This document shows positions 12,672-33,978 of a stretch of 64,000 bases of DNA, piece by piece (the first letter of the stretch is position 1; each line of letters opens with the position of its first letter). Source of the stretch: an uncultured Methylomirabilota bacterium (GTDB lineage: Bacteria > Methylomirabilota > Methylomirabilia > CAVQYV01); assembly GCA_963718295.1 (NCBI GenBank), contig CAVQYV010000008.1:79098-143097 (forward strand). Direction: 5' to 3'. A model generated the notes under the pieces. That model had not been told where the DNA came from, did not search any database, and saw only the letters and a program-made list of their open reading frames with translations. The position numbers and the translations under genes were made by a program.

Positions 12672-12799
12672 GGAGGAACGATCCTCGACCCAAGGATGCA
12701 TCCTGGCAAGCGTCCCTCGCCTCAAAAACTCCTTGATATTTGGACGCACTCTGCTATTTTGAGCTTTACTGCCTGCTGCCACGGAGAAAGGAGATCGGT

Positions 12800-14098
12800 A
12801 TGGTCTGGGATCCCAAATTCGAGTGCATGCCCATCGCGGAATTGAGGGATCTACAATTGGAGAGGTTGAAGGACACCTGTGAAAGGGTCTATGATCGAGT
12901 CCCCTTCTATTATCATGCCTTTCGCAAGGCGGCTTTCAAGCCGAAGGATTTCAGGTCCCTGGAAGATCTATCCCGGCTTCCCCTCACCACCAAAGACGAT
13001 CTCCGAGACAATTATCCCTTCGGGCTGTTCGCTGTTCCCTTCTCCGACATAGAGGAAATCCATACCTCCTCTGGCACGACGGGAAAACCGATCGTGGGCG
13101 GATATACCCATCGCGATATCGAGCTCTGGTCGGAGGTCATGGCCCGTTCTCTGACCTGCTCCGGCACCACCAAAGACGATGTGGTACAGAATGCCTATGG
13201 GTATGGCCTCTTCACAGGGGGCCTGGGGGTCCATTATGGAGCGAGGCGAATCGGGGCCTCCGTCATTCCCATCTCCGGCGGCAATACCAAGCGTCAGATC
13301 ATGATCATGCAGGATTTCGGGAGCACCATTCTCACCTGCACCCCCTCCTATACCCTCTATCTGGCCGAGGTAGCTGCGGAGATGGGGACCGACTTCTCCC
13401 AGATGAAGCTCAAGTCCGGCAATTTCGGGGCGGAGCCCTGGAGCGAGAATATGCGCACCGAAATTGAGAAAAAGCTCAATCTGCTCGCCCTGGATATTTA
13501 TGGCCTCACCGAGATCATTGGCCCAGGGGTGGCCAACGAATGCCAGGCGAAGCATGGCCTCCATATTTTTGAAGACCACTTCTATCCCGAGATCATCGAT
13601 CCTTCTACTGGCAAAAACCTCGCCGCCGGAGAGGCGGGAGAACTGGTGATCACCACCTTGACCAAACAGGCAATGCCCCTCATCCGCTATCGGACCCGAG
13701 ATATCACCTCCCTCATCCCCGGGACTTGCTCTTGTGGTCGAACGATGGTGCGGATGAAGAGGATCATGGGCCGGACCGATGATATGCTCATCATCCGGGG
13801 CGTCAATGTATTCCCCTCCCAGATCGAAGCCATCTTGATGCGGATCGAGGAAACGGAGCCCCATTACCAGATCGTGGTGGATCGGAAGGGGGCGCTGGAT
13901 GAGCTGGAGGTCCAGGTGGAGGTGAACGAGGGGATCTTTTCCGATGAGATCAAGCGGCTGGAGGATATCGAAAGGAAGATCGAAAGGGAGATAGAGAGCA
14001 CGCTGGGCATCTCAGTAAAGGTGCGGCTGGCAGAGCCGAGATCCATCCAGCGAAGCGAGGGCAAGGCGAAGCGGGTAATCGACAAGAGGAGTCTTTAG
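12800..14098 (+). CDS. phenylacetate-CoA ligase family (PaaK-like aryl-CoA ligase), paralog 1
   Basis: AMP-binding motif SSGTTGKP; N-terminus [24 protein letters not shown] typical of PaaK; ATG at 12800. Confidence 0.85.
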
Positions 14099-14850: not shown

Positions 14851-16152
14851 TTGAAGGTTTGGGAACCGGAGTTCGAGTGCATGAGAGGGGAAACTCTCGC
14901 CCAGTTGCAGCTGGGTAGGCTCCAGGCAACTGCTCATCGCGTCTGGGAGCACGTTCCCTTCTATCGGCAGGCTTTTGGAGAGGTGGGGTTGTCCCCCCGG
15001 GATCTCCGATCGTTAGAGGATCTGAAGGAGTTGCCTTTTACCACCAAGGCAGATTTGCGGGAAAGCTATCCTTACGGGATGTTCGCCGTGCCCTTGAAAG
15101 ATGTGGTGCGGATCCATTCCTCCTCGGGCACCACTGGAAAGCCCACCGTTGTGGGCTATACCCGTAACGACATCCTGAACTGGAGCAACCTGGTGGCCCG
15201 TTTTCTCACGGCAGGCGGGGTCACTGCCGAAGACGTCGTCCAGATCTCCTTCGGCTATGGGCTCTTTACCGGGGGCTTCGGGCTCCATTATGGGGCGGAG
15301 CGCATCGGGGCCTCCGTCATTCCCGTGTCGGCCGGCAACACCCACCGACAGATCATGATCATGCAGGATTTTCGCACCACCGCCCTGGTTTGCACCCCTA
15401 CCTATGCCCTATATCTGTCCGAGGTGATGGCCGAGATGAAGGTGGATCCCCGCTCGATCTCCCTGCGCGTGGGCCTCTTTGGATCGGAACCCTGGTCGGA
15501 GAACATGCGCCGGCAGATCGAGGAGAGGCTCGGTATATGGGCTACCGACAATTATGGCCTGAGTGAGATCATTGGTCCGGGGGTAGCGGGGGAGTGCGAG
15601 GTCAAAGATGGCCTGCACCTCTTCGAGGATCATTTCCTGCCTGAGATCATCGATCCCAAAACTGGGGAGACGCTCCCCCCTGGGCATCAGGGGGAGTTAG
15701 TCCTCACCACCTTGACCAAGGAAGCCTTTCCCATGATCCGCTACCGTACCGGAGACATCACCAGCCTGAATCCCGCCCCCTGTCCCTGCGGCCGCACCCT
15801 GGCCCGGATGAAAAGGGTTTCGGGCCGGACCGATGACATGCTCATCATCCGGGGAGTCAATGTCTATCCCTCCCAAATCGAGCAGGTGCTGCTGGAGATC
15901 GAAGGAACGGTCCCCCATTACCAGATTCTGGTGGAGCGAAAAGGGGCCCTGGACGAGATGGAGGTCCTGGTCGAGGTCTCAGAGAGGATATTCTTCGATG
16001 AGATGAAGAAACAACGTGAGTTGGTGGATCTGATCCAGGAGAGGCTTCGCAGCAGCCTATCGATCTCTGCCAAGGTGAAGCTGGTGGAGCCCAAGACCCT
16101 GGCTCGCTTCGAGGGGAAGGCCCAGAGGGTGGTGGATAAGAGAGAGATATGA
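14851..16152 (+). CDS. phenylacetate-CoA ligase family (PaaK-like aryl-CoA ligase), paralog 2
   Basis: TTG start with RBS gggaggtgagg; SSGTTGKP motif; collinear with paralog 1. Confidence 0.85.
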
Positions 16153-18464
16153 TCAAAGGGCAGGGTGTATCAGATGCTAAGGGGGGTCTGCCCTCTTCCT
16201 CCATGAAGCGAATGCCGCTTTTCTTCATCATGGCAGGGCATATCGTGGTCGATCTCTCCCAGAATATCCTGCCGGTCTTATTGCCGATTCAAAAGGCGGC
16301 CTTTGGCCTCAGCTACTCCCAGGCCGGGTTGGTGGCCACCATGCTGAATCTCACCTCCTCCATGATCCAGCCCGTCTTTGGCTTCATTTCCGACCGCTGG
16401 AAGACCGACTGGTTCATCAGCCTGGGAATCCTTTGGACTGCCCTTTTTATGGGAATGACCGGCCTCGCTCCCAGCTATCCCCTCCTCCTGCTCAGCGTCA
16501 CCTTGGCTGGATTCGGAACGGCCGCCTTTCATCCCCGGGCCACCATGGGAGTCAATTACATCAGCGGCGAGAGGCGGGGATTGGCCATGGCGATCTACAC
16601 CCTGGGAGGAAACCTGGGATTCGCCTTCGGCCCCATTTTCGCGGCCTTCTTCATCCTCCGTTGGGGCATTCAGAGTACTGCCTGGTTGATTGCCTTCTCG
16701 GTGCCGATCGCGATCATCCTCTATGGGTTGCGAAAGAATCTCGCCTCCCCGCCTTCTGCCGTCGCCAAGAAACCTGGCAAGATCGCCTGGTCAGGACTTC
16801 CCTGGAAGGAACTTCTGGCCCTTTCCCTGATCGTCACCCTTCGGTCCTGGACCTATCAGGGCTTCATCATCTATTTGCCCCTCTTTCTCCAAAGTAAGGG
16901 GATCAGCCTCACCGTGGGGAGCCGTCTGCTTTTTGTCTTTCTTCTGTCGGGGGCGATCGCGGGGCTCTTAGGAGGACACCTCTCCGACCATTGGGGGCGC
17001 AAGAAGGTGATCGCGGGGAGCCTTCTCCTCTTCTCCCCTCTGATGCTCCTGGCCCTCCGGCTCACAGGTCCCTGGGTCACCTTGTTTCTGGCATTGGCAG
17101 GGACCATGCTTCTGGCCGGGTTCTCCGTGATCATCGTCTATGCCCAGGAGCTGATGCCGGGGAATCTGGGACTGGCCTCGGGCCTCATGTTGGGACTGGC
17201 CTTTGGAACGGGAGGCATCGGGGTCTTCATTTCCGGCATGATGGCGGATGCATTCGGCCTGGAGAGGAGCATCCTGTTGCTGGCCTTCATGCCTGCTTTG
17301 GCCGGCCTGCTGGCCTTGACCTTGAAAGATCGCCATCTGATCGGGATCGAGAGGATCGGCTACGCAACGCCCTTAAATCTCACCTACAGAAAGGAAGGAC
17401 CAATGGAAGAAAAGACGAATGTGGTGTTGGTGAAAGCAGAGCCGCTGGGCAGATTCTGTATCCAGCTCTTCGAAAAGGTGGGGGTACCCTCCGAGGATGC
17501 CAGGGTGCTCATGGACAATCTGATCGAGGCCGACCTTCGCGGCGTGGACACCCATGGGGTCACCCGAATCGCAGTCTATATCGAGCGGCTCCAGTCGGGG
17601 GCGGTGAAGGCGAGGCCGCAGGTGAAGGTCCTCCAGGAGACCCCGGTCTCTGCGATCCTGGACGGGGATCACGGCCTGGGGCAGATCATGTCGGCCAGGG
17701 CCATGCAGATGGCCATCCAGAAAGCAAAGGCGGGAGTCATCGGGTTGGTAGGGGTGCGGAATTCCACTCACAATGGGGCCATGGCCCACTTCGCCTCGAT
17801 GGCGGTGAAGGAAGACCTGATCGGGATCGGCCTCACCAATACCGTTCCCTTGATGGCGCCCACCGGGGGAAATCAGGCCATGATCGGGAATAACCCATTG
17901 GCCATCGCCGCCCCGGCTGGATCGGAGAAGCCTGTAATCTTCGACATGGCCTGCAGCATTGCCGCACGGGGCAAGATCATCCTGGCGGCAAAGAAGGGCG
18001 ATAAGATCCCTCTCGGGTGGGCGATCGACAAGGAAGGCTTGCCGACGGAGGATGCCAAAGCCGCCTTGGAAGGGCTAATCCTTCCGGTAGGCGGGCACAA
18101 GGGCTACGGACTTGCCCTGATGGTGGATATCCTCTCGGGTGTCCTCACCGGCGCCAACTTTGGTCCAGGGGTGGGTCCGCTCTACAACAACCCCGGCACC
18201 CAGGATATCGGCCATCTCCTGGCAGCCATCAACATCGGGGCCTTCATTCCCATCGCTGATTTCAAGGGGCGGATGGACAAGATGATCCGGGATATCAAGA
18301 ATTCCAAGAAGGCAAAAGGAACCGCAGAGATCTTCTTGCCCGGCGAGATCGAGATGGGGATCGAGGAGAAGCGGCGCAAGGAGGGGATTCCCTTGAGTCG
18401 TGCGGTTTATGACGAGGTGCGCGGCGTGGGTGAGAAATTGGGGGTGAAGGCCGACTTCGCGTAA
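16149..18464 (+). CDS. single ORF joining an MFS transporter (N-terminal about 415 aa) to an Ldh_2 family dehydrogenase (C-terminal about 355 aa)
   Basis: ATG overlaps the PaaK stop (ATATGA); 12-TM-like MFS region, then in the same frame with no stop MEEKTNVVL...DTHGVTR...[20 protein letters not shown] (Ldh_2 signatures); aaggaagga RBS 6 nt before the internal ATG at 17404. Confidence 0.6.
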
Positions 18465-18489
18465 TGTGGTCGAGGGACATTGGATAAAC

Positions 18490-18523
18490 AAAAAGCCGGC
18501 GGTTTTCCGCCGGCTTTTTGTTT
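18490..18523. terminator. bidirectional Rho-independent terminator
   Basis: caaaaa-GCCGGCGG-ttttcc-GCCGGC-tttttgttt between convergent Ldh_2 ORF and cold-shock gene; A-tract and T-tract on either side. Confidence 0.6.
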
Positions 18524-18539
18524 AGGGTCTTGGCAGTGA

Positions 18540-18740
18540 CTACGCCTTTGTTACGTTGTCCGCTTTGGGGCCCTTGGGGCTCTGAACCACGTCAAAGTTT
18601 ACTGCATCACCCTCGGCCAGGGATTTGAAACCATCGCCGCGGATTGCAGAAAAGTGCACGAAAACGTCATTGCCGTCTTCCTGCTCAATGAACCCAAAGC
18701 CCTTGGCGTCATTGAACCACTTCACAGTACCTTGTGCCAT
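18540..18740 (-). CDS. cold-shock protein (CspA family)
   Basis: [33 protein letters not shown] with RNP1/RNP2 motifs; 66 aa from ATG at 18740. Confidence 0.9.
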
Positions 18741-19165
18741 CTGCTTTTTCTTCCTTTCTTTTTCCGGTAACATGCTCCGGGGATGACGGGAGCTACCCGC
18801 CGAAGCTATCAGGGCTTTTGGGAACAAAAAAACCGCCAAGCCTCAGGAGTCTTTAGCGGTTTTCACTGCTACGACAAAAAACGCCTGCAACTTCGTGCGT
18901 ACCTTAACAAGCCCAATCTCATCTGTCAACAAAAAAATTGTGTCGATCTTCGATTTGGATGGTCAAGTCCGGCCAGGCCTTGTCTTTCGCCACTTCCTGG
19001 ACTCAAGGGAGAAGGGCTTGGGGAACGTGGCACACCCTGGAGCCAAGGAACTGGGCCAGCCTCTGGCCCGCATCGGTTCGGTCTTGAAAGACGAATCTCT
19101 TGTTCCTGAGTCTTCTATCTTCGAAGAGGTTTTTCATCACCGCTTAATGAATCCTATCGGATTCG

Positions 19166-20302
19166 CTAAGCCGCAGCCGCCAGGGCCGCCTCTATTTCCC
19201 CCCTGGCAAACTCGGACGTCTCCCGGCTCAGACTCGCCTCCAGGATCTGTTTCGCCCGGCTCCCTCCGATCCTTCCCAAAGCCCATGCCGCATAGCCGCG
19301 GACCAGATCTTCCGGGTCTTCCATCGCCTGAGCGAGGGGGGGGATGAAGGTGGGATCGCCCGTGTTCCCCAGGGCAATGGCGGCGTTTCTCTGAAAGTAT
19401 TTCTTTTCCTGAAGATAGTTGTACATGATCGGTTGGACCCGTTTGGCATAGAACTCATCCGAGAGGTTCAGGATCCTGGGGAGATCGAGGTCCTTTGCCA
19501 CATGAGACAAGAACTCATTGGGAGGCAACTCGGCATTCAGCCTGCCCTTGTTTCTGGGACAGACCTCTTGACAGATGTCGCAGCCATGGATGCAGGTACC
19601 CATTTTCTCTCGCATCTCGGGGGAGATGTAGCTGGTAAGTCCTCCCGGTGCCCCGTCCCGAGTCCAGAAGTTATTGAAGGCAATGCAGCGGCGAGGGTCC
19701 ATCTTGAGCGGCTCATAAATGGCTCCGGTTGGACAGGCTTCGATGCAAGATGAACAATGGGTGGGACAGCCGAGCTCTATAGTTGGCTCATCATAGTCCA
19801 GCTTTACATCCACCACCAAAGAGTAGAGGATGATGAATGATCCAATGCCCTCGGCGTAGGCGAAGGTATTCCTTCCGTAAGTGACGACTCCGGCCCGGGC
19901 CCCCGTCAGCCTCTCCGGGACGCAGATTCCCTGACCTATTTGGCATCCATTCCTCTCCAGGAACTCCCGCATCAATCGGTGCCGAGCGCCGTGAATTCGA
20001 TGTTCCGGAGCATTGTAGGATCTCGTAAGGTAGAGGCGGCCGATTTTGCCCACCAGGTTCTCCGGGAAGGACTCCTTCGAGTAATCGTACACTAAAGATA
20101 CGATGGATTTGGCCGAGGGCATGAGGCTCCTCGGGTGGGCGCCCGCGAGGGGTTTCCGGGGCCCTTCGATGAAAAAGGCATACGATTCCCGCCTGGACTC
20201 GAGTTCCTCGATGTAATCGGGGAATCCGTCAGCAGTGGTGAAGCCCACTTTGCTATAGCCCAGGTCGAGGGCGAAGTCCTTTATGTCTTGCGTGAGCGAC
20301 AT
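19166..20302 (-). CDS. queG: epoxyqueuosine reductase QueG-like
   Basis: Two Cys-rich 4Fe-4S motifs (CPTHCSSCIEACP, CIHGCDICQEVCP) followed by a HEAT-like C-terminus (LVRGYAAWALGRIG). Confidence 0.65.
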   Translation of the reverse strand: MSLTQDIKDFALDLGYSKVGFTTADGFPDYIEELESRRESYAFFIEGPRKPLAGAHPRSLMPSAKSIVSLVYDYSKESFPENLVGKIGRLYLTRSYNAPEHRIHGARHRLMREFLERNGCQIGQGICVPERLTGARAGVVTYGRNTFAYAEGIGSFIILYSLVVDVKLDYDEPTIELGCPTHCSSCIEACPTGAIYEPLKMDPRRCIAFNNFWTRDGAPGGLTSYISPEMREKMGTCIHGCDICQEVCPRNKGRLNAELPPNEFLSHVAKDLDLPRILNLSDEFYAKRVQPIMYNYLQEKKYFQRNAAIALGNTGDPTFIPPLAQAMEDPEDLVRGYAAWALGRIGGSRAKQILEASLSRETSEFARGEIEAALAAAA

Positions 20303-20356
20303 TTTCCCTTTGTCTCCTTCTTCTGTCTCCCCGTTCCTATCAAAAGGCCATGGGCC

Positions 20357-21508
20357 TCATTTCGCCGGAAATTTTTCTGCCAGATACCGTTCCAGCCTCT
20401 TCATGCCCTCCTCGATGTTCTCGATGGAATTGGCATAAGAGAATCGCAGATAGCCCTCTGCGTTGGAGCCGAAGTCGATCCCGGGGGTGCAGCCGACGCG
20501 GGCCTTTTGCAGGATATCGAAGGCAAATTCAAAGGAATCTGCGCAGAAGCGCTTCGCATTGGCGAGGACATAGAAGGCCCCGGTGGGCTCCACGGTGATC
20601 CCGAATCCCAACTCTCGCAGCTTGGGGATGATGAACTTGCGGCGGCTGGCATAGATGTCCTTCATGCGGGCCACATCCGGTCCCGCTTCCCTGAGGGCGG
20701 CGATTCCGGCCCATTGGACGAAGGCATTGGCGGAGATGAAGAAATTCTGCGTCATCTTTTGCAGGGGCCGGACGAACTCCGGCGGGATGATCAGGTAGCC
20801 GAGGCGCCATCCGGTCATGGCGTAGAGCTTGGAGAAGCCGTTGATCACTATGGCGTTGTGGGTGAATTCCAGGATGGAGTGCTCCTTTCCCTCGTAGACC
20901 AGGCCGTGGTAGATCTCATCGGAGATTACCGTTTTTCCCAATTCTGCAATGGCCTGCATCTTCTCCGGGGGCGTTAGATTTCCAGTGGGATTGGCCGGAG
21001 AGTTGAGAAAAATGGCCTGGGTGCGAGGGCCAATCAGGGCTTTGATCTCCTCCGGACGGTATTGAAAGCCCTCCTCTTCGTAGACATTCAGGAAGGTCGG
21101 CTTTCCCTCCGCCATGAGCACGAAATTGGGATAACAGGCATAGTAGGGATTCGGCAGGATTACTTCGTCCCCGGGCTCCAGCAGGCTCAGAAAGAGGAGA
21201 AGCATCCCGGGCGAGGTCCCCGAGGTGACCAGGATCTGGTCTGGGCTTACCTCCACCCCGTATTGATTGTGATAGTGCTCCGCAATGGCCTCTCGAAGCT
21301 CCAGGACGCCCAGGCTATGGGTGTAATGGGTCTTTCCGTCTCGGATGGCGCGGATCGCCGCCTCCTTGACGCATTCCGGCGTGTCGAAATCCGGCTCGCC
21401 CACCTCCAGGTGCACGATATCCTCTCCTTTGCGCTCCATGGACGCCGCCTTCTCCATCACCTCCATCACAATGAAAGGGGAAATCTCGCCAGACCTCTTG
21501 CTAACCAT
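20357..21508 (-). CDS. pyridoxal-phosphate-dependent aminotransferase, class I
   Basis: GEPDFDTP, PLP-lysine motif NGFSKLYAMTGWRLGY; RBS gggagg before ATG at 21508. Confidence 0.8.
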   Translation of the reverse strand: MVSKRSGEISPFIVMEVMEKAASMERKGEDIVHLEVGEPDFDTPECVKEAAIRAIRDGKTHYTHSLGVLELREAIAEHYHNQYGVEVSPDQILVTSGTSPGMLLLFLSLLEPGDEVILPNPYYACYPNFVLMAEGKPTFLNVYEEEGFQYRPEEIKALIGPRTQAIFLNSPANPTGNLTPPEKMQAIAELGKTVISDEIYHGLVYEGKEHSILEFTHNAIVINGFSKLYAMTGWRLGYLIIPPEFVRPLQKMTQNFFISANAFVQWAGIAALREAGPDVARMKDIYASRRKFIIPKLRELGFGITVEPTGAFYVLANAKRFCADSFEFAFDILQKARVGCTPGIDFGSNAEGYLRFSYANSIENIEEGMKRLERYLAEKFPAK

Positions 21509-22252: not shown

Positions 22253-24087
22253 ATGCGACGGAATCAGATCCAAATGCTCGTAGTTGCAGCTCTTGTTTTC
22301 TTCTCACTCTTGGGTGAGGTAGCACCTTCTGAGGCCTCCACCAGCGTTTTCCAGGGGTTGGAGCGCTACCCCGTGAATGGAAAGGAATGGATACCATTGG
22401 TGGATGGCAAAGCATATTTTCGGGATGCCTTCGTAGGCGGTTTGACAGCCATTCTCGACGCTGCCGATGGGGAGGAATGGGGAGGTTCGGTGGTCCGGCC
22501 TGATGGTTCCTATCTCTACTGGTATCCCATTAGATTCCATTCGAATTACCAGGGTAAATCGGACTGCTTTGTATGCTCGAATTGGCGAGAGCCCGTCTGT
22601 GGCTCGAACAGCATCATGATGCGTTGGTATACGAATGTACGTCCCGATGCGGATAGCGGATTGCCATGCTATCCCACTGGCCTCTGGAGGTATAGCTTCA
22701 CGAAGAACGGCGTTGCCTTTGCTACTCCGGAATTCACGCTTTTGCCACAGATTCCTGGGGTGCCGTGCTTCAGCCAAGGAGACCAGCAACACACCTTAGC
22801 GATTCCATCTGTAAGGGGCCGAGGAGACAATGGTCGCATTACATCCGTTCGCTGCGGCGGAAAGTACCAGATTCCCTGGACGATTGCTGCCAAAGGGTGT
22901 CTCCTGGTTAACGCTGTTATGATTCTACAATACCACGGGGTGACTACAGGGAGTCGACGGCGGAACCTGTGACGCCGGAGAACCTGAATGCCTGGCTAAT
23001 TGAAACAGGGTACGGCTATGACGCCGATAGGTGAACTGAGACTGCCAAAAGCTGAGAAAGTACTCGGGCGGGCAAGTGACATATCGCCAAATGGTCGAGT
23101 TGGATACTGATGTTCCATAGCGATGCTTTCCTTCGAGAAGAAATGTGCAAGTATGGACCTACCGTGATCCGGGTCCAGTTCGCCCGCCGGGTCATCCGGG
23201 GCCACTTCGTGGTAGGCGACTGGGCGGGACTACCCCGCAGGAAAGCACCTGGCTGATTAACGATCCAGCCGGAGGAGAAGTGACTACGTTGGCCCAAATA
23301 TGGAAATCGATACTATTGTCTCCGGAGGTTTACTGGCCCGGAATTTGGTTGGACGGACCGTTTAGTGGACTCAGTATCAAGCTATACTCCCCTGCGGAGT
23401 TCTTCTCACTGACCCGCAGGGACGGCGGACAGGGCGGGACCCCATCAGCAACATGGGCTTACAGGGAGATTCCGCGCTCTGCTTACGTGGACGTCTGCAT
23501 TGCAGATGCGGAGAATGGCGAACTCGTCCCTCCGGTAATGGAACTTGAGGTATTGCGAGCCTATAGACGGGACTTACACCCTACAGGTGACGGGGATTGA
23601 AGCGGGAGGTTACAGTCTCTATATTCGGCCTGAAGATCGGACAGGGGAATCGGCCTCCCAGACGTTGCTCGGGGAGATCCCTACCTATCCAGGTGCTATC
23701 CACAGCTATACTATCGAATACTCTGCTACTCCCGGTGCCATATTGAAGCTCTTCGGTGGCTTTGACGGACACGGCCAAAGGCCCAGTAACGTAAACATGT
23801 TCCTGTCCTACGGCAACCCTATGAGCTCTCGGGTTCAGCTTGAGGCGGGTGAGAAGACATTTCCTCTTGTGATCTTATACGGAGCCACCATTCAGCCGCA
23901 AACCTTTCGGGCTACGCTAAATGGAACGGATATAACGGCCCAGTTCCGCCCTATCCCCGGAGGAACCGAACTGATCAACCTGTCGCTGGATCCTGGCTCA
24001 AACCCATTAGTTCTGTCCGTAGACGGTGCCACCGCCTCGGGCAGGGTGGCCACGGACACGGACCGCTTGGTCTTCCTAGTGCCATGA
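22253..24087 (+). pseudogene. secreted protein with C39-like (papain-fold) peptidase domain plus C-terminal beta-rich module; several frameshifts
   Basis: Signal peptide MRRNQIQMLVVAALVFFSLLGEVAPSEA; peptidase motifs VPCFSQ, KGCLLVNAVMILQYHG, and in a shifted frame GHFVVGDWAG then LINDPAGG; coding continues across at least three frame changes (track ORFs 22166..22972, 23145..23600, 23545..24087). Confidence 0.5.
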
Positions 24088-24952
24088 GATCGGGATTCCT
24101 TTCCTGCATCTTCTTGTTAATTTTGATTATCGCGCCACCGATCAGGCAGCTCGAAATCGGAGCGACCCCCCCAGATCCCCAGCAAACACTCATGGAGAGA
24201 AAGCCGTCCAAAGAGCCCTTTCACAGTCTCACCCTCAGGCTCTTGGGTCTTAAGATGGACCGGATCAGTCAAAATTTGGTGAGCGAGCTTCTTCTGACCG
24301 ATTCCCAGGGGCGGCGAACGGGAACAGACCCCATGGCAAGAGCCAGATATAAGGAAATCCCTCAATCCGCCTACATAGAGGAATATATGGTTCGTCCAAT
24401 GAAAGAGCTTGAGATCTCCAAGCCGCTCGACGGATCATATATCGTTGCAGGTGATCGGGATAAACCGCGGAAGTTACGATTTGTCGACCTATCCGACCGA
24501 CGAAGCCGGAGACTCCCCCAATCAGCCCCGCTTTGATAACATCCCTATCGCACCCCGAATGGTACACGCCTACAAGCTGGACTACACTCGTACCCCTGGA
24601 ATTCCTCTCAAGGTCACCGGCGGCTTCGACGGGGGAGGAAAGGGGCCAACAGATATGAACAACTTCTTGACCTATGCAAATCCCATTTCCACTGAAACCG
24701 ACAATCCGGGCTGGAAAGACCCCCTTTCCTTTGATCCTATTTTATGCCCCCACCATCGATCCCGCTAGCTTCACGGCTACGCTGGATGGCGTCGATATCT
24801 CACGCCGGTTCAAGCCGATCCCCGGTGGCTACCAGGTCATTCCCCTCAAGTTCAGTGTTGGCTCGCATACCCTGATGCTTTCGGTGCAAGGGAAGACCTC
24901 CGGCGGCGAGGCGGCCACGGACACGGACAAGCTCACTTTCTCGGTTCATTGA
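24084..24952 (+). pseudogene. secreted paralog carrying only the C-terminal module of the upstream gene; two frameshifts
   Basis: ATGA start/stop overlap with upstream gene; signal peptide MRSGFLSCIFLLILIIAPP; homology to gene 1 module (GGFDGGGKGP..., ATLDGVDISRRFKPIPGG..., TDTDKLTFSVH) spread over frames at 24084, 24409 and 24674. Confidence 0.45.
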
Positions 24953-24984: not shown

Positions 24985-25341
24985 ATGAAAACTACCAAAT
25001 TGCTTTGGATTGCTGTGATCTCCGTTATTGTCCTCGCGGCCGGCTATTTGATGGTCTACAGAGGCCGACAGGCGCCGACTACGGTGGCCGCAAATACCGC
25101 GCGGCAAAATGATTCCCAAAATCAGAAGCAGGCGGGTCCGATGGCTCTCTCGGGCAAGGAACAAACGTATATCGTCGCCTCTGACTATGTCTCCGTGCGA
25201 CGGAACCAAACGTGCGTTTGCCGGAAGAGGCCCTCTCCTACAAAGAACTACAAGGAAAGGATCCCCCAAGCCTGGCCCCTTGCCTCTATTATGGAGAAAG
25301 CGTTCTGGGCGAGGCTGATCCCGCCCATCCGGACGTCATAA
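24985..25341 (+). CDS. possible small membrane-anchored hypothetical protein
   Basis: MKTTKLLWIAVISVIVLAAGYLMVYRGRQ N-terminal TM; C-terminal half looks poor; ends just before the REP/RAYT element. Confidence 0.2.
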   Translation: MKTTKLLWIAVISVIVLAAGYLMVYRGRQAPTTVAANTARQNDSQNQKQAGPMALSGKEQTYIVASDYVSVRRNQTCVCRKRPSPTKNYKERIPQAWPLASIMEKAFWARLIPPIRTS

Positions 25342-25371
25342 CTCTTCGCGCCCCGGTTCAGGGATATGCAG

Positions 25372-25809
25372 GAATCAGGGGACATAATACCGATTCTTCC
25401 CTTGCCTTTGTAAGTAGATCCTCATAGCATACCCGTATGGCCCGTATCTCGCGCATCGTCGTTCCGGGTTACCCCCACCATGTAACCCAGCGGGGCGTCC
25501 GCTCGATGGAGGTGTTTCACAGGGATGAGGAACGCCACGCTTACCTTCGGTTTCTTGCCGAGGAGGCAGGCCGCTTCGATGTGGACATCCTCTGCTGGTG
25601 CCTGATGAGCAACCATGTCCATGTCATAGCCGTCCCCCATCAGGAGACCTCTCTTGCCAGGGCGTTCGGCGAGGCGCACCGGCGCTATACCTGATGGAAG
25701 AACTTCGCGGAAGGCGTACGCGGGTATCTCTTCCAGGGACGGTTCAGCTCGTCCGTCCTCGGCGAAGATCACCTGCTTTCTGAATCGGTGAATCAGGGGA
25801 CATAATACC
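25372..25809 (+). mobile_element. REP/RAYT-like element, copy A (carries the transposase ORF; 3' part missing)
   Basis: Starts with gaatcaggggacataatac shared by all three copies; contains the Y1 HUH transposase ORF. Confidence 0.7.
25437..25808 (+). pseudogene. IS200/IS605-superfamily Y1 (HUH) transposase of the REP-associated (RAYT-like) type, nonsense codon and 3' truncation
   Basis: MARISRIVVPGYPHHVTQRGVRSMEVF...LMSNHVHVIAVP (HUH motif) ...RRYT-TGA-WKNFAEGVRGYLFQGRF; in-frame TGA at 25692-25694; ORF ends where copy B begins. Confidence 0.7.
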
Positions 25810-26100
25810 GATTCTTCCCTTGCCTTTGTCAGTAGATTCTCATAGCATACCAGTAGGGCCCGTATCTCGCGCATCGTTGTTCCGGGTTGAAAGGAGTTTC
25901 TTCGCAGCGGAGACGACCAGGCAACGGTCCGGCTCTGGCTGGCGACGCGGACGGGTCGGCCGGCAGGCGGTGAGGAGCTTATTGCCCTAGTGGAACGGCT
26001 GACGGGTCGTGACCTGCGCAAAGGGCCGCCGGGAAGGCCCAGAAAGGCGCAGGCATAAAACAGTATTATGTCCCCGGATTCCCCTGTCCCCGGATTCCCC
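25810..26100 (+). mobile_element. REP/RAYT-like element, copy B (internally deleted derivative, MITE-like)
   Basis: Same 5' end; retains only first about 8 codons (start ATG changed to AGG) fused to transposase C-terminal coding (TRTGRPAGGEELIALVERLTGRDLRKGPPGRPRKAQA); ends gtattatgtcccc plus ggattcccctgtccccggattcccc, inverted relative to the 5' end. Confidence 0.7.
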
Positions 26101-27178: not shown

Positions 27179-28613
27179 ATGTTCGTCAGGCTCAAGAGCT
27201 ATTTATCTAAAGGCAACAGATACGAATATCTCCAGATCGTCGAATCCTATCGGGATCACGGTGCCGTCCGCCAGAGAGTCGTGTCTAATATCGGCCGGCT
27301 CGATCTGCTGGCCGCCTCCGAGCAACTCGATCAGATCGTTTCGGGCCTCTCCCGCTACAGCGAGGCCTACCGTGGATTTCAAGCCTTCCTCCGGGGGAGC
27401 TGGAAGGATGTACCGCCCGCACCTGGGGACCCTGCCGATCTTTGGCCGGCTCTGGGAGGATCAGCGGCTGCCGGAGGTGATCCGGCATCTGGCCCAGGGA
27501 CGAGGGTTCCAGTTCGAAGTGGAACGAGCGGTCTTCGCCCTGGCGCTGCAACGGCTCTGTGCCCCGGGAGCGATCTTTCCGGTCGAGGATGGCTGGAGAC
27601 GGTAGAGGCCCCCGGATTGCAGGCATTGCGCCTGCAGCATCTGTACCGGACCTGCACGTTCCTGGCCGGGATCCGGGAAGAGCTGGAGCGGGAGCTCTTC
27701 TTCCGGGACCGGGATCTCTTCTCCCAGGAGCTGGACCTGGTCTTCCTGGACACCACCTCCACCTATGTGTACCGGGATCAGGAGACGCCCTATCGGCGAC
27801 GGGGGTTCTCCCGGGATCGCCGGGCCGATCTGCCCCAGTTCGTCCTGTGCGTGGCGGTGGATGCCAAGGGGTGGCCCGTAGCCTGGGAGATCTATCCGGG
27901 CAACACGGCGGACGGGGTCGCCCTGGAGCGGATCGTGGGAGCCCTGCGGGAGCGCTTTCGGATTCGGCGGGCCATCGTGGTGGCCGACCGGGGGATGATG
28001 TCCCGGGAGACGATCCGGCTGCTGGAGGCACACCCGGCCCCCTTCGACTACATCCTGGGCTGTCGGATGCGAGAACAAAAGGAGGTACGCGAAGAGGTGC
28101 TGGCCCGGGTGGGCCGCTACCAGGTCGTAGCCGGGAACCTGGAGGTGAAAGAGGTGAGCGTAGGAGGCAAGCGCTACCTCGTCTGCCGCAACCCGGAGGA
28201 GGTCCAGAAGGATCAGGCGGCCCGGGAGGCTATCCTGGCCCAGCTGGAGGAGGTCCTCTCTCAGGGTCCAAGGGACTCATGGCCAACAAGGGGTATAGGC
28301 GTTTCCTGAAGATCGGGAAAGGCTCGGTGCGCATCGATCCTTTGGCCGTCGAGCAGGATGCCCGCCTGGACGGCAAGTTCGTGCTGGCCACCAATACCGA
28401 TTGCCCGCAGCGGAGGTGGCCCGAAGCTACAAGAGCCTCTGGCGGGTGGAGCGTACCTTTCGCGAGGAGAAATCTACCTTGGAGGTGCGGCCATCTATCA
28501 CCATCGGGATGACACCTGCATCGGCACATCGTCGCCTCCTTTTGGCCCTGCGCCTGGAGGTGGACCTGCAACGGAGACTGGAGGAGAAGGAAATCGAGGC
28601 CCGGCCCAGCTGA
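27179..28613 (+). pseudogene. IS4-superfamily (IS1634-family-like) DDE transposase, multiply frameshifted
   Basis: N-terminus MFVRLKSYLSKGNRYEYLQIVESYRDHGAVRQRVVSNIGRLD; DDE region LVFLDTTSTYVY...VVADRGMMS; C-terminal segments DGKFVLATN and YKSLWRVERTFREEKSTLEVRP lie in two further frames. Confidence 0.55.
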
Positions 28614-28881
28614 TGCAACAGCTTTCCAGGTGCAGGCGGTGCACATCGGCCTGGGGGACGACACTTCCTCCACGGACATCTGGGTCCGCTTCTCTCGCCT
28701 TCCAGGCGGTGGGCATGCGTCCCCGCCGGATGGTGGAGATGGAGGGAGGAAGATGTAGTGCCAAGAATTGGAGCTAAGCGAATCTGCTAAATAATAAGTA
28801 CAGAAAGGCAGGAAGAGAAAAGCAATATGTATCAAGGCCTTTGGCCCCCTCCATACTGTTTCAGGAAGGTGTGCCATCCTT

Positions 28882-28964
28882 GGAAGAATCAGGGGACATG
28901 GAAGAATCAGGGAAGAATCAGGGGACATGGAAGAATCAGGGGACATGGAAGAATCAGGGGACAT
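28882..28964 (+). repeat. about 4.6 tandem copies of an 18-bp unit (ggaagaatcaggggacat) at the 5' end of element copy C
   Basis: Directly visible; unit equals the element 5' terminal sequence. Confidence 0.8.
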
Positions 28965-29262
28965 AATACCGATTCTTCCCTTGCCTTTATCAGTAGATTC
29001 TCATCGCATACCAGTATGGCCCGTATCCCGCGCATCGTTGTTCCGGGTTGAAAGGAGTTTCTTCGCAGCGGAGACGACCAGGGGACGGTCCGGCTCTGGC
29101 TGGCGACGCGGACGGGGCGGCCGGCAGGCGGTGAGGAGTTTATTGCCCTAGTGGAACGGCTGACGGGTCGTGACCTGCGCAAAGGGCGGCCGGGAAGGCC
29201 CAGAAAGGCGCAGGCATAAAAACAGTATTATGTCCCCGGATTCCCCTGTCCCCGGATTCCCC
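28882..29262 (+). mobile_element. REP/RAYT-like element, copy C (internally deleted derivative, MITE-like)
   Basis: Near-identical to copy B over about 300 bp, including start ATG, the same internal deletion and the same 3' end (gtattatgtccccggattcccctgtccccggattcccc). Confidence 0.7.
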
Positions 29263-29491: not shown

Positions 29492-29667
29492 TGCATGCGT
29501 GATGATACGAGGTGCAACGGGAACTGCGGAGGTCCAACGGGCCTCTCATCTTGCAGGCATTGAAAGCCAATGGCCTATTTCTTGCTGAGGTCGATTTAAC
29601 AGCCTACTGGAAAGATCGTTCAGGTGGCATCCGAAGACCCGAGCGGAGATCAGAAAGGAGGAGCAAG

Positions 29668-31799
29668 GTGAAACGGAAAAGCTCCACCTCGCTGCAATTC
29701 ATTCTCTTGGTTCCCCTGTCTCTCATCATCCTTTTCGCCGCTTCCAGCCAAGGGGCAGAGCAATGGAAGGACACTTTTGTGGGTGTCCCCCGAGCGAGCG
29801 GTCCCGCCATCTGGACCGGCACGGAGATGATCGTCTGGGGAGGCACCTATTACTATAGAAGCGGAGGACGCTTCAACCCCTCCACGGACGCTTGGACACC
29901 TATTTCCAACGCCAGGGCACCGCTGCCCGGGTATGCCCACACCGCCATCTGGACCGGCACGGAGATGATCATCTGGGGAAGTGGTAGCAACAGCGGCGGA
30001 CGGTACAATCCGACTACCGATACCTGGACTCCCGCTTCGACTGCCGGAGCGCCATCACCAAGATCTGGCCACACCGCCATCTGGACCGGCACGGAGATGA
30101 TCGTCTGGGGAGGGTATGACGGCAGTTCCTATCTCAACACCGGCGCCCGCTACAATCCCACCACCAACACCTGGATTCCTCTCCCCACGGTCGGGGCACC
30201 AAGGATGAGGGAAGACCACACCGCGGTCTGGACCGGCAGCCAGATGGTTGTGTGGGGAGGGAGCAGTGCAGGAGGGCGCAAGAACACGGGCGGACGGTAC
30301 AATCCGACTACCGATACCTGGACTCCCACCTCGACTGCCAGTGCGCCATCACCAAGATCTGGCCACACCGCCATCTGGACCGGCACGGAGATGATCGTCT
30401 GGGGAGGGTATGACGGCAGCTCCTATCTCAATACGGGCGCCCTCTACAATCCGACTACCGATACCTGGACTCCCACCTCGACTGCCAGTGCGCCAGCGCC
30501 AAGATATGCCCACACCGCCATCTGGACCGGCACGGAGATGATCGTCTGGGGAGGTGGCAGCAACACCGGCGCCCTCTACAATCCGACTACCGATACCTGG
30601 ACTCCCACCTCGACTGCCAGTGCGCCAGCGCCAAGATATGCCCACACCGCCATCTGGACCGGCACGGAGATGATCGTCTGGGGAGGACACGGCAGTTTCT
30701 ATCCCGACACGGGGCCCGCTACAATCCCACCACCAACACCTGGAGGGGAATGTCCCTTGAGTACTGTCCCGAGCCCAGAGGGGATCACACCGCCATCTGG
30801 ACCGGCACGGAGATGGTCGTCTGGGGGGGGTATAACGGGTATCTCGCGGGATGGGGAGGCCACTATATCCCCCTCACGGATACGTGGAAATGGGGGGAAC
30901 CCCTAACCACAATGTGGTACCCCCCAGGGCACAGACGAGGTCACACCGCCGTCTGGACCGGCACTTGGATGATCCTCTGGGGAGGGTATGGGTACGATAA
31001 TTTTTGCGGGGGCTTTATTACATACCTCAACGACGGCAGCTTCTACTTGCCTTCTATGTATCCGGTTAATACATGGTATCGGATCTATTCCCTGGGGGCG
31101 CCACAGGCAAGATGTTGGCACACCGCCATCTGGACCGGCAGGAAGATGATCGTCTGGGGAGGATACGACGGCCGAACCTATTTCATCACCGGCGGGCGCT
31201 TCAGCCCGGAGACAAATATTTGGCAAGGCACGTCCACCGAAGGGGCACCGAGAGGAAGGTCCCGGCACACCGCCATCTGGACCGGCAAAGAGATGATCGT
31301 CTGGGGAGGACTTGATCGCACGGCCTCGTTCAACACGGGCGGGCGCTACCGCCCCAGCACCGATACCTGGTCTCCCACCTCGACTGCCAGTGCGCCATCA
31401 CCAAGATCTGGCCACACCGCCATTTGGACCGGGAAGGAAATGATCGTCTGGGGAGGGTATGACGGCAGCTCCTATCTCAACACCGGCGCCCGCTACAATC
31501 CGACTACCGATACCTGGTCTCCCATTTCCACCGCCGGTGCGCCATCACCAAGATCCGGCCATACCGCGGTCTGGACCGGCACCCAAATGATCGTGTGGGG
31601 CGGCAAGAATGCCTCTGGTTGCATGAGAACCGGGGGCCGCTACGACCCCGTCACGGACACCTGGACCCCCACCACCCTGAAGCTGGCACCCGTGGGAAGG
31701 GCCCATCACACCGCCATTTGGACTGGCACGGAGATGGTCGTCTGGGGAGGGATGAATGGTGGCTTCTACCTCAACACGGGTGGCCGCTATACCCCTTGA
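29668..31799 (+). CDS. secreted Kelch-repeat (beta-propeller) protein, paralog 1; one frameshift near 30713
   Basis: GTG start after RBS aaaggagga; signal peptide KRKSSTSLQFILLVPLSLIILFAASSQGA; about 13 repeats of the RYNPTTDTWTP...APSPRSGHTAIWTGTEMIVWGG unit; frame change between track ORFs 29512..30906 and 30750..31799. Confidence 0.6.
30436..30686 (+). repeat. perfect intragenic tandem duplication (119 bp identical, 132-bp period) inside Kelch gene 1
   Basis: ggcgccctctacaatccgactaccgatacctggactccc...gatcgtctggggagg occurs at 30436 and again at 30568. Confidence 0.75.
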
Positions 31800-31848
31800 T
31801 TCCAGCGAAATCGGAAGAATCCAGCGGAGGTCGGAAAGGAGGAACAAG

Positions 31849-33978
31849 GTGAAACGGAGGAGCTTCACCTCTCGGCAATTGGTTTTCTTGGCCTCGTTCT
31901 CTCTCATCGTGCTTTTAGCCGCTTCCGGCCAGGCAACGGAGGAATGGAAGGGCACTCCTGTGGGCGCCCCCTGGGTGGACCGTGGTCAAACCGCCATCTG
32001 GACCGGCACAGAGATGATCGTCTGGGGAGGAACCTATCACTATAGAGGGGGAGGGTGCTACAACCTTGCCACCGACACCTGGAGACCCATTTCCAACACC
32101 AAGGCGCCGAGGGCTGAATACGACCACATAGCGGTTTGGACGGGCACGGAGATGATCATCTGGGTGGGAGCCAACAACACCGGCGGCCGTTATGACCCCG
32201 CCATGGACAGGTGGTCTCCCATTTCCACCGCCGGTGCGCCATCACCAAGATCATGGCCATACCGCCGTCTGGACCGGCACGGAGATGATCATCTGGGGAG
32301 GGTATGACGGCAGCTCCTATCTCAACACGGGCGCCCGCTACAATCCGACTACCGATACCTGGTCTTCCATTTCGACCGCGGTGCGCCAACCGCGGGCCAC
32401 ACCGCCATCTGGACCGGCACGGAGATGATCATCTGGGGAGGTGGCAGCAACACCGGCGGCCGCTATGACCCCGCTACCGATACCTGGTCTCCCATTTCCA
32501 CCGCCGGTGCGCCATCACCAAGATCTAGCCATACCGTGGTCTGGACCGGCACGGAGATGATCATCTGGGGAGGGTATGACGGCACTTGGCTCAACTCGGG
32601 AGGCCGCTACGATCCTACCGGCGATACCTGGATCTCCACTTCGGTAACAGGCGCGCCCAAGGCGAGAATTGCCCACACCGCCATCTGGACCGGCAGTCAG
32701 ATGGTTGTGTGGGGAGGGAACGGTGCAAGAGGGCACAAGAAGACCGGTGGACGCTACGATCCGACGAGCGACGCCTGGACAGCTACCTCCACCCTTGGGG
32801 CGCCTGAAGGGAGGGTTTATCATACGGCGCTCTGGACGGGAAGGAGATGATCGTGTGGGGCGGGAGACGGCAGCTCGTATCCGAACGACAGCGGCGGACG
32901 CTACGATCCCGCTGCCAACGCTTGGAGCAAGATCTCCCATGATAGGAGTCCTGAGGAGAGACGCGATCACACCGCCGTCTGGACCGGCACGGAGATGATC
33001 GTGTGGGGTGGGTATAACGGGGATCATCTGGGATGGGGCGGCCACTATATCCCCCTGACGGATACCTGGACCCGGACGGAACCCCCCTCTGGTTTTCTCC
33101 GAGGTGGGGGGAGGAAGGACCACACCGCCGTCTGGACCGGCACGGAGATGATCGTCTGGGGAGGCTATGGGGACGGCAGTTGCGGATGCACTCCATACCT
33201 CAACAGCGGCGCGCGCTACCGGCCCGCGTTTTATCCCGATGATACCCGTGCCTGGCTTGGGATGTCTTACCTGGGGGCACCACAGGCAAGGCGTTGGCAC
33301 ACCGCCGTCTGGACCGGCGGGAAGATGATCGTCTGGGGAGGGTATGACGGCCGAACCCACCTTACCACCGGCGGGCGCTACAACCCGGAGACGGATATCT
33401 GGCAGGGCACCTCCACCGAAGGGGCCCCCAAAGGCAGGTCCCGGCATACTGCAATCTGGACCGGGAAGGAAATGATCGTCTGGGGAGGGCTTGGTCGCAG
33501 CGCCTCGTTCAACACGGGCGGGCGCTACCGCTTCAATACCAATACCTGGACTCCCACCTCGACCGATGGAGCGCCATCTCCAAGATATAGCCATACCGCC
33601 ATCTGGACCGGCAAAGAGATGATCGTCTGGGGAGGGTATGACGGCAGCTCCTATCTCAACACGGGCGGCCGCTACAATCCGACTACCGATACCTGGACTC
33701 CCCTCTCCACGATCGGGGCACCCACGATGAGGAAGGACCACACCGCGGTCTGGACCGGAAGCCAGATGATCGTGTGGGGCGGCAAGAATGCCTCTGGTTA
33801 CATGAGAAGCGGAGGCCGCTACGACCCCGTCACGGACACCTGGACCCCAACCACCGTGAAGCTGGCACCCGTGGGAAGGGTCCATCACACTGCCATTTGG
33901 ACTGGCACGGAGATGATCATTTGGGGAGGAATTAGCGGTGGCTTCTACCTCGAAACAGGTGGCCGCTATACCCCTTGA
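31849..33978 (+). pseudogene. secreted Kelch-repeat protein, paralog 2; at least four frameshifts
   Basis: Same leader and GTG start (ggaaaggaggaacaaggtg), same signal peptide type and repeat unit; coding alternates among track ORFs 31756..32307, 32192..32428, 32425..32850, 32995..33978; one break is a G-run length change (acgggaaggag versus expected acggggaaggag). Confidence 0.5.

What the first reader, a model, noticed from the sequence alone, without database searches (positions are those of the whole stretch)
22253..24952. Tandem secreted genes: C39-like peptidase plus shared C-terminal module, then the module alone
Gene 1 has a signal peptide and papain-fold C39-like motifs (KGCLLVNAVMILQYHG for Cys, GHFVVGDWAG for His, read in a shifted frame), followed by a roughly 270-residue module ending TDTDRLVFLVP. 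Gene 2 starts at an ATGA overlap, has its own signal peptide and encodes only a paralogous module ending TDTDKLTFSVH. Both are interrupted by several frame changes. The module family was not recognised and may be an undescribed secreted beta-rich domain.
Basis: partly seen in the sequence, partly recalled or inferred. Interest (0 to 1): 0.55.

Follow-up and report, generated by a model that had tools for sequence, protein, structure and literature searches.

The report
Frame-damaged secreted cysteine peptidase gene pair
This is a real but uncharacterised pair of exported proteins, a papain-type (C39-like) cysteine peptidase with two immunoglobulin-like end domains and a second protein made of those end domains alone, and the many reading-frame breaks in this copy are most likely sequencing or assembly errors rather than biology.

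Summary
Gene 1 (22253-24087) is a frame-broken copy of a ~600-aa exported protein. It has a signal peptide, an N-terminal beta-sandwich, a C39-like papain-fold peptidase (Gln/Cys/His/Asp all present) and a ~240-aa C-terminal module. Gene 2 (24084-24952, ATGA overlap) has a signal peptide plus a paralogous module (47% identity, E 3e-67).

Intact relatives exist: P0001 is 78% identical, and 312 clusters match at E<1e-30. They occur in Acidobacteriota, Nitrospirota, Methylomirabilis and others. About half of the loci carry 1-3 module-only genes downstream, and in the closest relatives these overlap the upstream gene by 4 nt.

The module models as two generic Ig-like sandwiches. It has no Pfam or NCBIfam model and no specific match in the PDB.

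Gene 1 has 14-15 frame-disrupting indels within 770 bp and gene 2 has two. There is no in-frame stop, every family-invariant residue is kept, and pN is normal. Elsewhere in the window, a single extra base fuses two housekeeping genes. That base is absent from a 99.95%-identical independent assembly and from close relatives. I therefore read the breaks as consensus errors (~75%), not pseudogenisation.

Function is unknown. My best guess is an exported peptidase positioned by its sandwich domains, with co-translated non-catalytic paralogues as partners. Interest is modest.

The parts
22253..24087 (+). Gene 1: exported C39-like cysteine peptidase with C-terminal module. After frame repair it is 605 aa, 78% identical to the intact P0001.
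22253..22339 (+). Sec-type signal peptide of gene 1 (MRRNQIQMLVVAALVFFSLLGEVAPSEA|S).
   Evidence: Read from the sequence. In the model it is a helix at residues 2-21 with low pLDDT.
22340..22762 (+). N-terminal beta-sandwich domain (aa 30-170) with conserved Cys residues. No family model matches it.
22763..23366 (+). Papain-fold C39-like peptidase domain. Gln 22775-22777, Cys 22898-22900, His 23203-23205, Asp 23262-23264. A Cys-Cys hairpin insertion lies between the Gln and the Cys.
22783..23552 (+). Zone holding all 14-15 frame-disrupting indels of gene 1. By nucleotide alignment they are: +1 at 22783, 22799, 22948, 22962, 23214, 23237, 23459 and 23552; +2 at ~23027; +13 at ~23103; -2 at ~22827 and ~23297; -1 at 23361 and 23404.
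23367..23721 (+). Module domain D1 of gene 1: a beta-sandwich with the conserved motif LLTDPQGRRTGxDP...EIP.
23746..24084 (+). Module domain D2 of gene 1: a beta-sandwich with the motif GGFDGxGQRP..VN.FLSY and the C-terminal strand TDTDRLVFLVP.
24084..24952 (+). Gene 2: signal peptide, linker and module only. It is 288 aa after removal of two extra bases at ~24441-24444 and ~24700-24703. Its start overlaps the gene 1 stop (ATGA). It is 64-65% identical to the intact P0011 and P0012.
24985..25360 (+). Gene 3 remnant: a membrane-anchored protein (MKTTKLLWIAVISVIVLAAG...) conserved after the module-only gene in L027 (66% identity). It has a one-base deficit at ~25197 (CGGGAA read as CGGAA) and is cut off by the repeat element that starts at 25361. 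No Pfam match.

Best explanation
The locus encodes a Sec-exported, clan-CA (papain-fold, C39-like) cysteine peptidase. Its catalytic domain lies between an N-terminal beta-sandwich and a C-terminal module of two Ig-like beta-sandwich domains. A translationally coupled gene follows, encoding an exported, non-catalytic copy of that module alone.

Inferred mechanism: the sandwich domains position the enzyme on its target, or hold it in an assembly, in the periplasm or at the cell surface. The module-only paralogues are accessory partners. They either bind the same target or co-assemble with the enzyme through the shared module. They are made in a fixed ratio because their start codons overlap the upstream stop codons.

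Shown here:
- the domain architecture
- the conserved catalytic residues
- the paralogy of the two modules
- the recurrence of the tandem arrangement in many phyla
- purifying selection on both genes

Not shown: proteolytic activity, the substrate, and any physical interaction.

The 17 frame breaks in genes 1 and 2 of this copy are most probably single-base consensus errors of the deposited assembly, in a poorly resolved accessory stretch. The organism most likely has intact genes.
For: Family and architecture:
- Intact homologues of ~600 aa cover 100% of the repaired gene 1.
- PF13529 hits are seen.
- The model has pLDDT 91.8 and pTM 0.87, indicating a fixed domain arrangement.
- Invariant Cys, His and Asp are shown.
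- The module models as two sandwiches with only generic Ig/FN3 matches.

Tandem arrangement:
- A full-length gene followed by module-only or D1-only genes occurs in L002, L005, L007, L008, L011, L016 (two copies), L020, L027, L028, L031 and the P0001 contig (two copies).
- The 4-nt overlap is seen in the window, L002, L020, L027, L028, L031 and the P0001 contig.
- There are no other conserved neighbours.
- Selection: pN/pS is about 0.3 for gene 1 and 0.4-0.5 for gene 2.

Breaks read as artefacts:
- There is no in-frame stop.
- In the broken zone, 26 of 26 invariant and 45 of 46 strongly conserved positions are kept, as in intact homologues.
- Identity and pN to relatives are no worse than between intact relatives.
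- Most events are single extra bases, whereas natural bacterial indel bias is toward deletion (general knowledge).
- The same kind of extra base at ~17347 fuses an MFS gene to an LDH2 gene. It is absent from a 99.95%-identical Logan contig of run ERR11561443 and from proteins 98.5% identical in other assemblies.
- A second Logan contig differs from the window only by one single-base indel in 4.9 kb.
Against: - No read-level or independent-assembly evidence could be obtained for the gene 1 or gene 2 positions themselves.
- The density of breaks in gene 1 (one per ~50 bp) is far above the window's background. The two independent contigs show roughly one indel per 4-5 kb.
- The locus sits at the edge of a visibly decaying stretch: gene 3 is cut by a repeat element, a transposase remnant has an in-frame stop, and an IS transposase is broken. 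Relatives of this family also decay naturally: L028 has one frameshift and L024 a 1.7-kb insertion. Real inactivation is therefore not excluded.
- The repaired window protein itself has no Pfam hit.
- Nothing tested here bears directly on what the module binds or whether the two proteins interact. About half of the loci lack a module-only gene, so it is not essential to the enzyme.
Confidence: 0.6

Rival explanations
1. The frame breaks are real. Genes 1-3 are pseudogenes in a decaying accessory island next to mobile elements, and the organism no longer makes these proteins.
For: - Gene 3 is truncated by a repeat element, and neighbouring transposase genes are degraded.
- Breaks cluster between 22 and 33 kb, while most long genes in the window are intact.
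- Family members decay in other genomes: L028 has a frameshift, L024 an insertion, and the second copy in L013 is truncated.
- The public record carries the same broken ORFs (P0041, P0214).
Against: - There are 14-15 indels in 770 bp without a single in-frame stop.
- No conserved residue is lost and pN is not elevated. Under neutral decay, that many indels should come with dozens of substitutions.
- The indels are biased toward insertion.
- A proven extra base in a housekeeping gene, relative to an independent assembly of the same population, shows that the record contains this error type.
Confidence: 0.22
2. The module-only protein is a trans-acting regulator or inhibitor of the peptidase. 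It would be a free copy of a domain that contacts the catalytic domain in cis, comparable to SpeB-Spi (an inhibitor homologous to the protease's own prodomain) or staphopain-staphostatin. Its role would be to protect the producer's envelope.
For: - The gene lies directly downstream, is translationally coupled and has its own signal peptide.
- The high pTM suggests the module packs against the catalytic domain.
- Truncated, Cys-less intermediates exist, such as P0024 and the 310-aa ORF of L021.
Against: - About half of the loci have no module-only gene, which is unexpected for an obligatory self-protection factor.
- The known precedents are cytoplasmic and derive from N-terminal prodomains (from memory).
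Confidence: 0.12
3. The module-only proteins are substrates or building blocks that the peptidase processes. The analogy is the periplasmic C39 peptidase FapD, which is needed for export of co-encoded Fap proteins, or protease-primed pilus subunits. They would assemble into a surface structure.
For: - FapD is a precedent for a Sec-exported C39 peptidase acting on products of its own operon (PMC5557850).
- The module-only genes occur in tandem arrays of 1-3 copies.
- The linker between the signal peptide and D1 is poorly predicted (pLDDT ~50).
- The C-terminal strand is strongly conserved.
Against: - No cleavage motif was identified.
- The enzyme carries the same module itself.
- There is no secretion or usher gene nearby.
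Confidence: 0.1

Closest known systems
Peptidase_C39_2 (Pfam PF13529), e.g. PDB 3ERV, putative C39-like peptidase of Bacillus anthracis
   Different: - Here the catalytic domain has a ~35-aa Cys-Cys hairpin between the Gln and the Cys.
- It is flanked by an N-terminal sandwich and a two-sandwich C-terminal module that have no family model.
- The window protein and P0001 score below the threshold.
C39 bacteriocin-processing peptidase domains of ABC exporters (PCAT1, ComA, LahT; Pfam PF03412)
   Different: - Those domains are cytoplasmic, fused to a transporter, and cut double-glycine leaders.
- This protein has a Sec signal peptide and no transporter in cis or nearby.
- PF03412 stays below its threshold.
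FapD, the periplasmic C39 peptidase of the Pseudomonas fap amyloid operon
   Same: It is a stand-alone, Sec-exported C39-type cysteine peptidase encoded together with exported non-catalytic proteins (PMC5557850).
   Different: - FapD is a single domain and shares no module with its operon partners.
- No sequence relation to FapD was tested here.
- No FapF-like pore or amyloid subunits are present at this locus.
Protease plus cognate-inhibitor gene pairs of papain-like enzymes (SpeB-Spi, staphopain-staphostatin)
   Same: A gene directly downstream of a papain-fold protease gene encodes a small non-catalytic protein. In the case of Spi, that protein is homologous to part of the protease precursor (from memory, not checked here).
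   Different: - Those inhibitors are cytoplasmic, and Spi resembles the N-terminal prodomain.
- Here the copy is of the C-terminal module and is exported.
- It varies from 0 to 3 copies per locus.

Membership tests
Peptidase_C39_2 (PF13529), clan CA | Profile score at or above the Pfam gathering threshold (24 bits) | tested here: inconclusive
   The repaired window protein gives no hit at E<=1, and P0001 scores 17.7 bits. P0003, P0007, P0008, P0009 and P0010 score 24.4-36.9 bits. 16 of 39 family members hit at E<=0.01.
Peptidase_C39_2 (PF13529), clan CA | Catalytic Gln, Cys, His and Asp/Asn in papain order | tested here: met
   Q175, C215, H311 and D330 (P0001 numbering) are invariant or nearly so. 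In the window they lie at 22775, 22898, 23203 and 23262.
Peptidase_C39_2 (PF13529), clan CA | Papain-like fold of the catalytic domain | tested here: met
Peptidase_C39_2 (PF13529), clan CA | Peptidase activity | not testable with these tools
   Needs recombinant protein and a Cys-to-Ala control.
C39 bacteriocin-processing peptidase (PF03412) | N-terminal cytoplasmic domain of an ABC exporter, with the profile above threshold (22 bits) | tested here: not met
   The protein has a Sec signal peptide and is not fused to a transporter. No transporter is among the conserved neighbours. The best PF03412 score is 16.3 bits.
Ig-like / FN3-like beta-sandwich domains (the module) | Two-sheet sandwich fold | tested here: met
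Ig-like / FN3-like beta-sandwich domains (the module) | Membership of a named sequence family (Big_x, fn3, PPC, Cadherin-like and similar) | tested here: not met
   No Pfam or NCBIfam hit for the module. There are only single sub-threshold hits: Big_13 in 1 of 39 members and Cadherin-like at E 0.12.
Pseudogene | Reading frame disrupted in the sequence as given | tested here: met
   14-15 breaks in gene 1, 2 in gene 2 and 1 in gene 3.
Pseudogene | Signs of relaxed constraint: in-frame stops, loss of conserved residues, raised pN | tested here: not met
   No in-frame stops. 26/26 invariant and 45/46 conserved positions are kept. pN is 0.19-0.27, against 0.12-0.24 between relatives.
Pseudogene | Disruptions supported by independent accurate reads | not testable with these tools
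   The independent Logan contigs that could be retrieved (L029, L030) do not reach 22.2-25.4 kb. Where they do overlap a break (~17347), they lack it.

The most novel reading that the evidence does not exclude
The peptidase and its module-only paralogues form an undescribed exported system. In it, free copies of the enzyme's own two-domain module either regulate the protease in trans or are processed by it and assemble into a surface structure. This would be a protease-plus-pseudo-self-module unit, spread across Acidobacteriota, Nitrospirota and Methylomirabilota.
Probability: 0.15. Interest if true: 0.55.

Novelty: new variant of a known kind. Interest (0 to 1): 0.3.

Why it matters
**The family.** Exported C39-like peptidases outside ABC exporters are barely characterised. 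This family is a sizeable unnamed group of them:
- 312 clusters at 50% identity match at E<1e-30, and about 2,000 at E<1e-10.
- It is found in abundant but poorly studied soil and groundwater phyla.
- It has a fixed four-domain architecture.
- It has a recurring habit of spawning co-translated, non-catalytic copies of its own C-terminal module.

A Pfam-style definition of the N-terminal domain and of the two module domains would name several thousand 'hypothetical proteins'.

**The record.** This case also shows that the deposited contig carries single-base consensus errors that split and fuse genes. That matters for anyone using its annotation.

Tried and rejected
**Family and feature scans that gave nothing useful**
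- Pfam on the raw ORF fragments and on my first hand-joined pieces gave no hits.
- NCBIfam, PADLOC and PHROGs on intact homologues gave nothing.
- A profile search of PDB sequences gave only 3erv_A at E 0.24.
- Rfam and tRNA scans of the window gave nothing.
- The promoter and terminator scan of 21.5-25.5 kb was no better than shuffles.

**Structure searches**
- Foldseek against viral structures gave only meaningless multi-sandwich matches, TM ~0.1.
- The afdb50 library was not available.

**Genomic context and taxonomy**
- A search for conserved neighbour genes across 26 loci found none beyond the family itself and antisense shadow ORFs. The aminotransferase and IS matches are only 27-30% identical and are not synteny.
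- The window's organism could not be named. It is not among the GTDB species representatives hit, and cluster look-ups gave no accessions.

**Search for an independent assembly over gene 1**
- Exact look-ups of P0041, the DUF2848 gene and the LUD gene found nothing.
- Proteins from cluster look-ups may not be looked up.
- A literature search for the run accession found nothing.

**Readings I rejected**
- Programmed frameshifting or slippage was rejected. There are 15 sites, not concentrated in long homopolymer runs, with no repeated shift motif noticed.
- My first impression that 13 of the 15 breaks are +1 insertions was softened by the nucleotide alignment: +1 x8, +2, +13, -1 x2, -2 x2.
Full report
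**What is in the sequence**

On the + strand between 22253 and 24952 the coding signal jumps between all three frames. I joined the pieces by eye and searched the protein collection. That returned intact proteins of 597-691 aa covering 100% of the query.

The best is P0001 (604 aa). Its first 30 residues are identical to those of the window gene. I then aligned P0001 to the DNA with a frameshift-aware alignment. This gave a 605-aa repaired product that is 78% identical to P0001, with 15 frame changes, all between 22778 and 23556, and no in-frame stop.

Gene 2 starts at the ATG of CCATGA (24084), overlapping the gene 1 stop. It needs two single-base removals, at ~24441-24444 and ~24700-24703, to give a 288-aa product. 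Intact 288-290-aa relatives exist; P0011 and P0012 are 64-65% identical.

The C-terminal 238 aa of gene 1 align with gene 2 at 47% identity over 226 aa, E 3e-67.

**Are the frame breaks real?**

A nucleotide alignment with three relatives (L028, L002, L027) places the window-specific, frame-disrupting events as follows:
- +1 at 22783, 22799, 22948, 22962, 23214, 23237, 23459 and 23552
- +2 at ~23027
- +13 at ~23103
- -2 at ~22827 and ~23297
- -1 at 23361 and 23404

Several results argue against long-standing decay:
- There is no in-frame stop.
- In the broken zone the repaired protein keeps 26 of 26 positions that are invariant in 18 intact homologues, and 45 of 46 positions conserved at 85% or more. 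That is as good as any intact member in a leave-one-out test.
- Its identity to homologues in that zone (0.66-0.70) equals the identity among intact homologues (0.68-0.70).
- Its pN to relatives (0.19-0.27) overlaps the range between the relatives themselves (0.12-0.24), with pS near saturation.

If 14-15 indels had accumulated neutrally, dozens of substitutions, lost conserved residues and several stop codons would be expected.

The window also contains the same kind of defect in housekeeping genes. The 771-aa ORF at 16149-18464 is an MFS transporter fused to an LDH2-family dehydrogenase. Proteins 98.5-99.4% identical in other assemblies are two separate genes, and the fusion is caused by one extra base at ~17343-17347.

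An independent assembly of public run ERR11561443 (Logan contig L029, 4,033 bp) is 99.95% identical to window 16809-20842. Its single gap is exactly that base. A second contig from the same run (L030, 4,876 bp) matches window 46662-51538 with no mismatch and one single-base length difference in a C-run. Which of the two versions is right there was not resolved.

The lytic transglycosylase gene is likewise split by one extra base near 7745.

The deposited contig and an independent assembly of the same population therefore differ almost only by single-base indels. At the one site that could be judged against several relatives, the window is the odd one out.

The public record does carry the broken ORFs. 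P0041 (239 aa) and P0214 (92 aa) are exact window fragments from a 696,518-bp contig held by NCBI and ENA.

I conclude that the breaks are most probably consensus errors concentrated in a poorly resolved accessory stretch (about 75%). What keeps real pseudogenisation alive (about 22%):
- The error density in gene 1 is far above background.
- Gene 3 is truncated by a repeat element.
- Transposase genes next door are degraded.
- Relatives of this family decay naturally: L028 has one frameshift and L024 a 1.7-kb insertion.

No independent contig covering 22.2-25.4 kb could be retrieved.

**The family**

A scan of one genome per species found 23 loci. The hosts include Candidatus Methylomirabilis, several Acidobacteriota, Nitrospirae (including Candidatus Magnetominusculus xianensis HCH-1), a Deltaproteobacteria MAG, Melioribacter and others, at 32-45% identity. 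None is the window's own species.

An exhaustive profile search with the module found 4,843 cluster representatives at E<=1e-3, 2,039 at 1e-10 and 312 at 1e-30. They are a mix of ~600-660-aa full-length proteins and 240-310-aa module-only proteins. Ten unusual long or multi-stretch hits added only fn3 domains or nothing.

Some members (P0007, P0009) have lipobox-like signal peptides, read from the sequences.

**Domains**

PF13529 Peptidase_C39_2 exceeds its threshold in P0003, P0007, P0008, P0009 and P0010. It is below threshold in P0001 and absent from the repaired window protein. 16 of 39 members hit it at E<=0.01, and two also hit Peptidase_C70.

The AlphaFold2 model of P0001 is confident: pLDDT 91.8, pTM 0.87. 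Its parts are:
- a signal helix
- a beta-sandwich (30-170)
- an alpha/beta catalytic domain (about 171-360)
- two further sandwiches (366-483 and 492-603)

Its conserved signatures are L-L-T-D-x-x-G-R-R-x-G-x-D-P...E-I-P in D1, and G-G-F-D-G-x-G-Q-R-P...V-N-x-F-L-x-Y plus the terminal D-x-D-R-L-V-F strand in D2.

**Gene arrangement**

The full-length gene is followed by module-bearing genes with their own signal peptides in many loci:
- L002: 288 aa
- L008: 276 aa
- L016: 295 and 291 aa
- L027: 290 aa
- L028: 289 aa
- L031: downstream gene present
- the P0001 contig: 288 and 290 aa
- L005, L007, L011 and L020: D1-only proteins of ~200-220 aa
- L021: a 310-aa form that keeps the end of the peptidase domain
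- L013: two tandem full-length copies

About half of the loci have none.

The 4-nt start/stop overlap seen in the window also occurs in L002, L020, L027, L028, L031 and the P0001 contig. No other gene is conserved nearby.

In L027 the module-only gene is followed by a homologue (66% identity) of the membrane-anchored ORF that follows gene 2 in the window. That ORF has a one-base deficit near 25197 and is cut by the repeat at 25361.

Gene 2 relatives show pN/pS of about 0.4-0.5, so they are maintained by selection, but less tightly than the enzyme.

**How it most likely works**

Shown: an exported papain-fold peptidase with intact catalytic residues, rigidly packed with three sandwich domains, and a co-translated exported paralogue of two of them.

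Inferred: the sandwiches position the enzyme on a target in the envelope or outside the cell. The module-only proteins bind the same target or co-assemble with the enzyme. Translational coupling is the usual signature of products needed together. The variable copy number, and the absence of a module-only gene from half of the loci, fit an accessory partner better than an obligatory inhibitor.

Two alternatives remain open:
- a Spi- or staphostatin-like trans regulator
- a substrate or building block processed by the enzyme, with periplasmic FapD as a precedent for a Sec-exported C39 peptidase acting on its operon's products (PMC5557850)

Pfam PF13529 also appears in surveys of phage endolysins, so a peptidoglycan substrate is possible. 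Nothing here tests it.

**Comparison and verdict**

The catalytic domain belongs with the C39-like peptidases by fold, catalytic residues and family-level profile hits. The window sequence itself does not reach the Pfam threshold.

It is not a bacteriocin-processing C39 domain: it has a signal peptide, no transporter, and PF03412 is below threshold.

The N-terminal domain and the module are unnamed sequence families with ordinary sandwich folds. The architecture and the self-module paralogues appear undescribed, so I rate this a new variant of a known kind.

Interest is modest (0.3). The biology is unproven, the folds are ordinary, and the striking frame breaks are probably technical.

Noticed in passing
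window 16149-18464 (break at ~17343-17347): A 771-aa ORF fuses an MFS transporter to an LDH2-family dehydrogenase because of one extra base. Proteins 98.5-99.4% identical in other assemblies are two genes, and a 99.95%-identical Logan contig (L029, run ERR11561443) lacks that base.
   Followed up: yes
window ~51115-51118 (L030 position ~424): The only difference between the window and a 4,876-bp Logan contig is a C-run of 4 versus 3. It changes the called start of a radical-SAM gene (382 aa in the window, 334 aa in L030). Which version is correct was not resolved.
   Followed up: partly
window 6833-8279, minus strand (break ~7745): A lytic transglycosylase (SLT plus LysM) is split into two ORFs by what reads as one extra base inside the FMK-TAKLFGL motif.
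   Followed up: partly
window 25361-25470, 25779-26100, 28940-29262: A ~300-nt repeat with terminal inverted repeats (GGTGAATCAGGGGACATAATACCGATT...) is present in two full copies (97% identical, 3,161 nt apart) and one partial copy. The full copies bracket an OmpA-family gene and a broken IS1634-like transposase. The partial copy truncates gene 3.
   Followed up: partly
window 25437-25691 and onward: An IS200/Y1-transposase-like remnant with an in-frame stop (RRYT*WKNF...GYLFQGRFSS) lies between two copies of the repeat.
   Followed up: no
window 27179-28512: An IS1634-like DDE transposase is split over at least two frames.
   Followed up: no
window 29512-33978: Kelch-repeat beta-propeller coding sequence lies in several overlapping frames (at least two frame switches, near 30.7 kb and 31.8 kb). 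It is either one or two large genes with breaks.
   Followed up: partly
window 28881-28959: A short tandem repeat, TGGAAGAATCAGGGGACA, about four copies, lies just before the second copy of the 300-nt repeat.
   Followed up: no
L013 9983-12914; L024 9980-13242; L028 ~2823: Family members decay in other genomes. Candidatus Magnetominusculus xianensis has two tandem full-length copies, the second truncated beside an IS1634-like ORF. A Holophagales MAG has the gene interrupted by a ~1.7-kb insertion. A JGI contig has a single frameshift.
   Followed up: partly
window 12740-14098 and 14851-16152: Two paralogous AMP-binding enzymes lie close together (AMP-binding plus AMP-binding_C_2, an architecture like phenylacetate-CoA ligase).
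   Followed up: no
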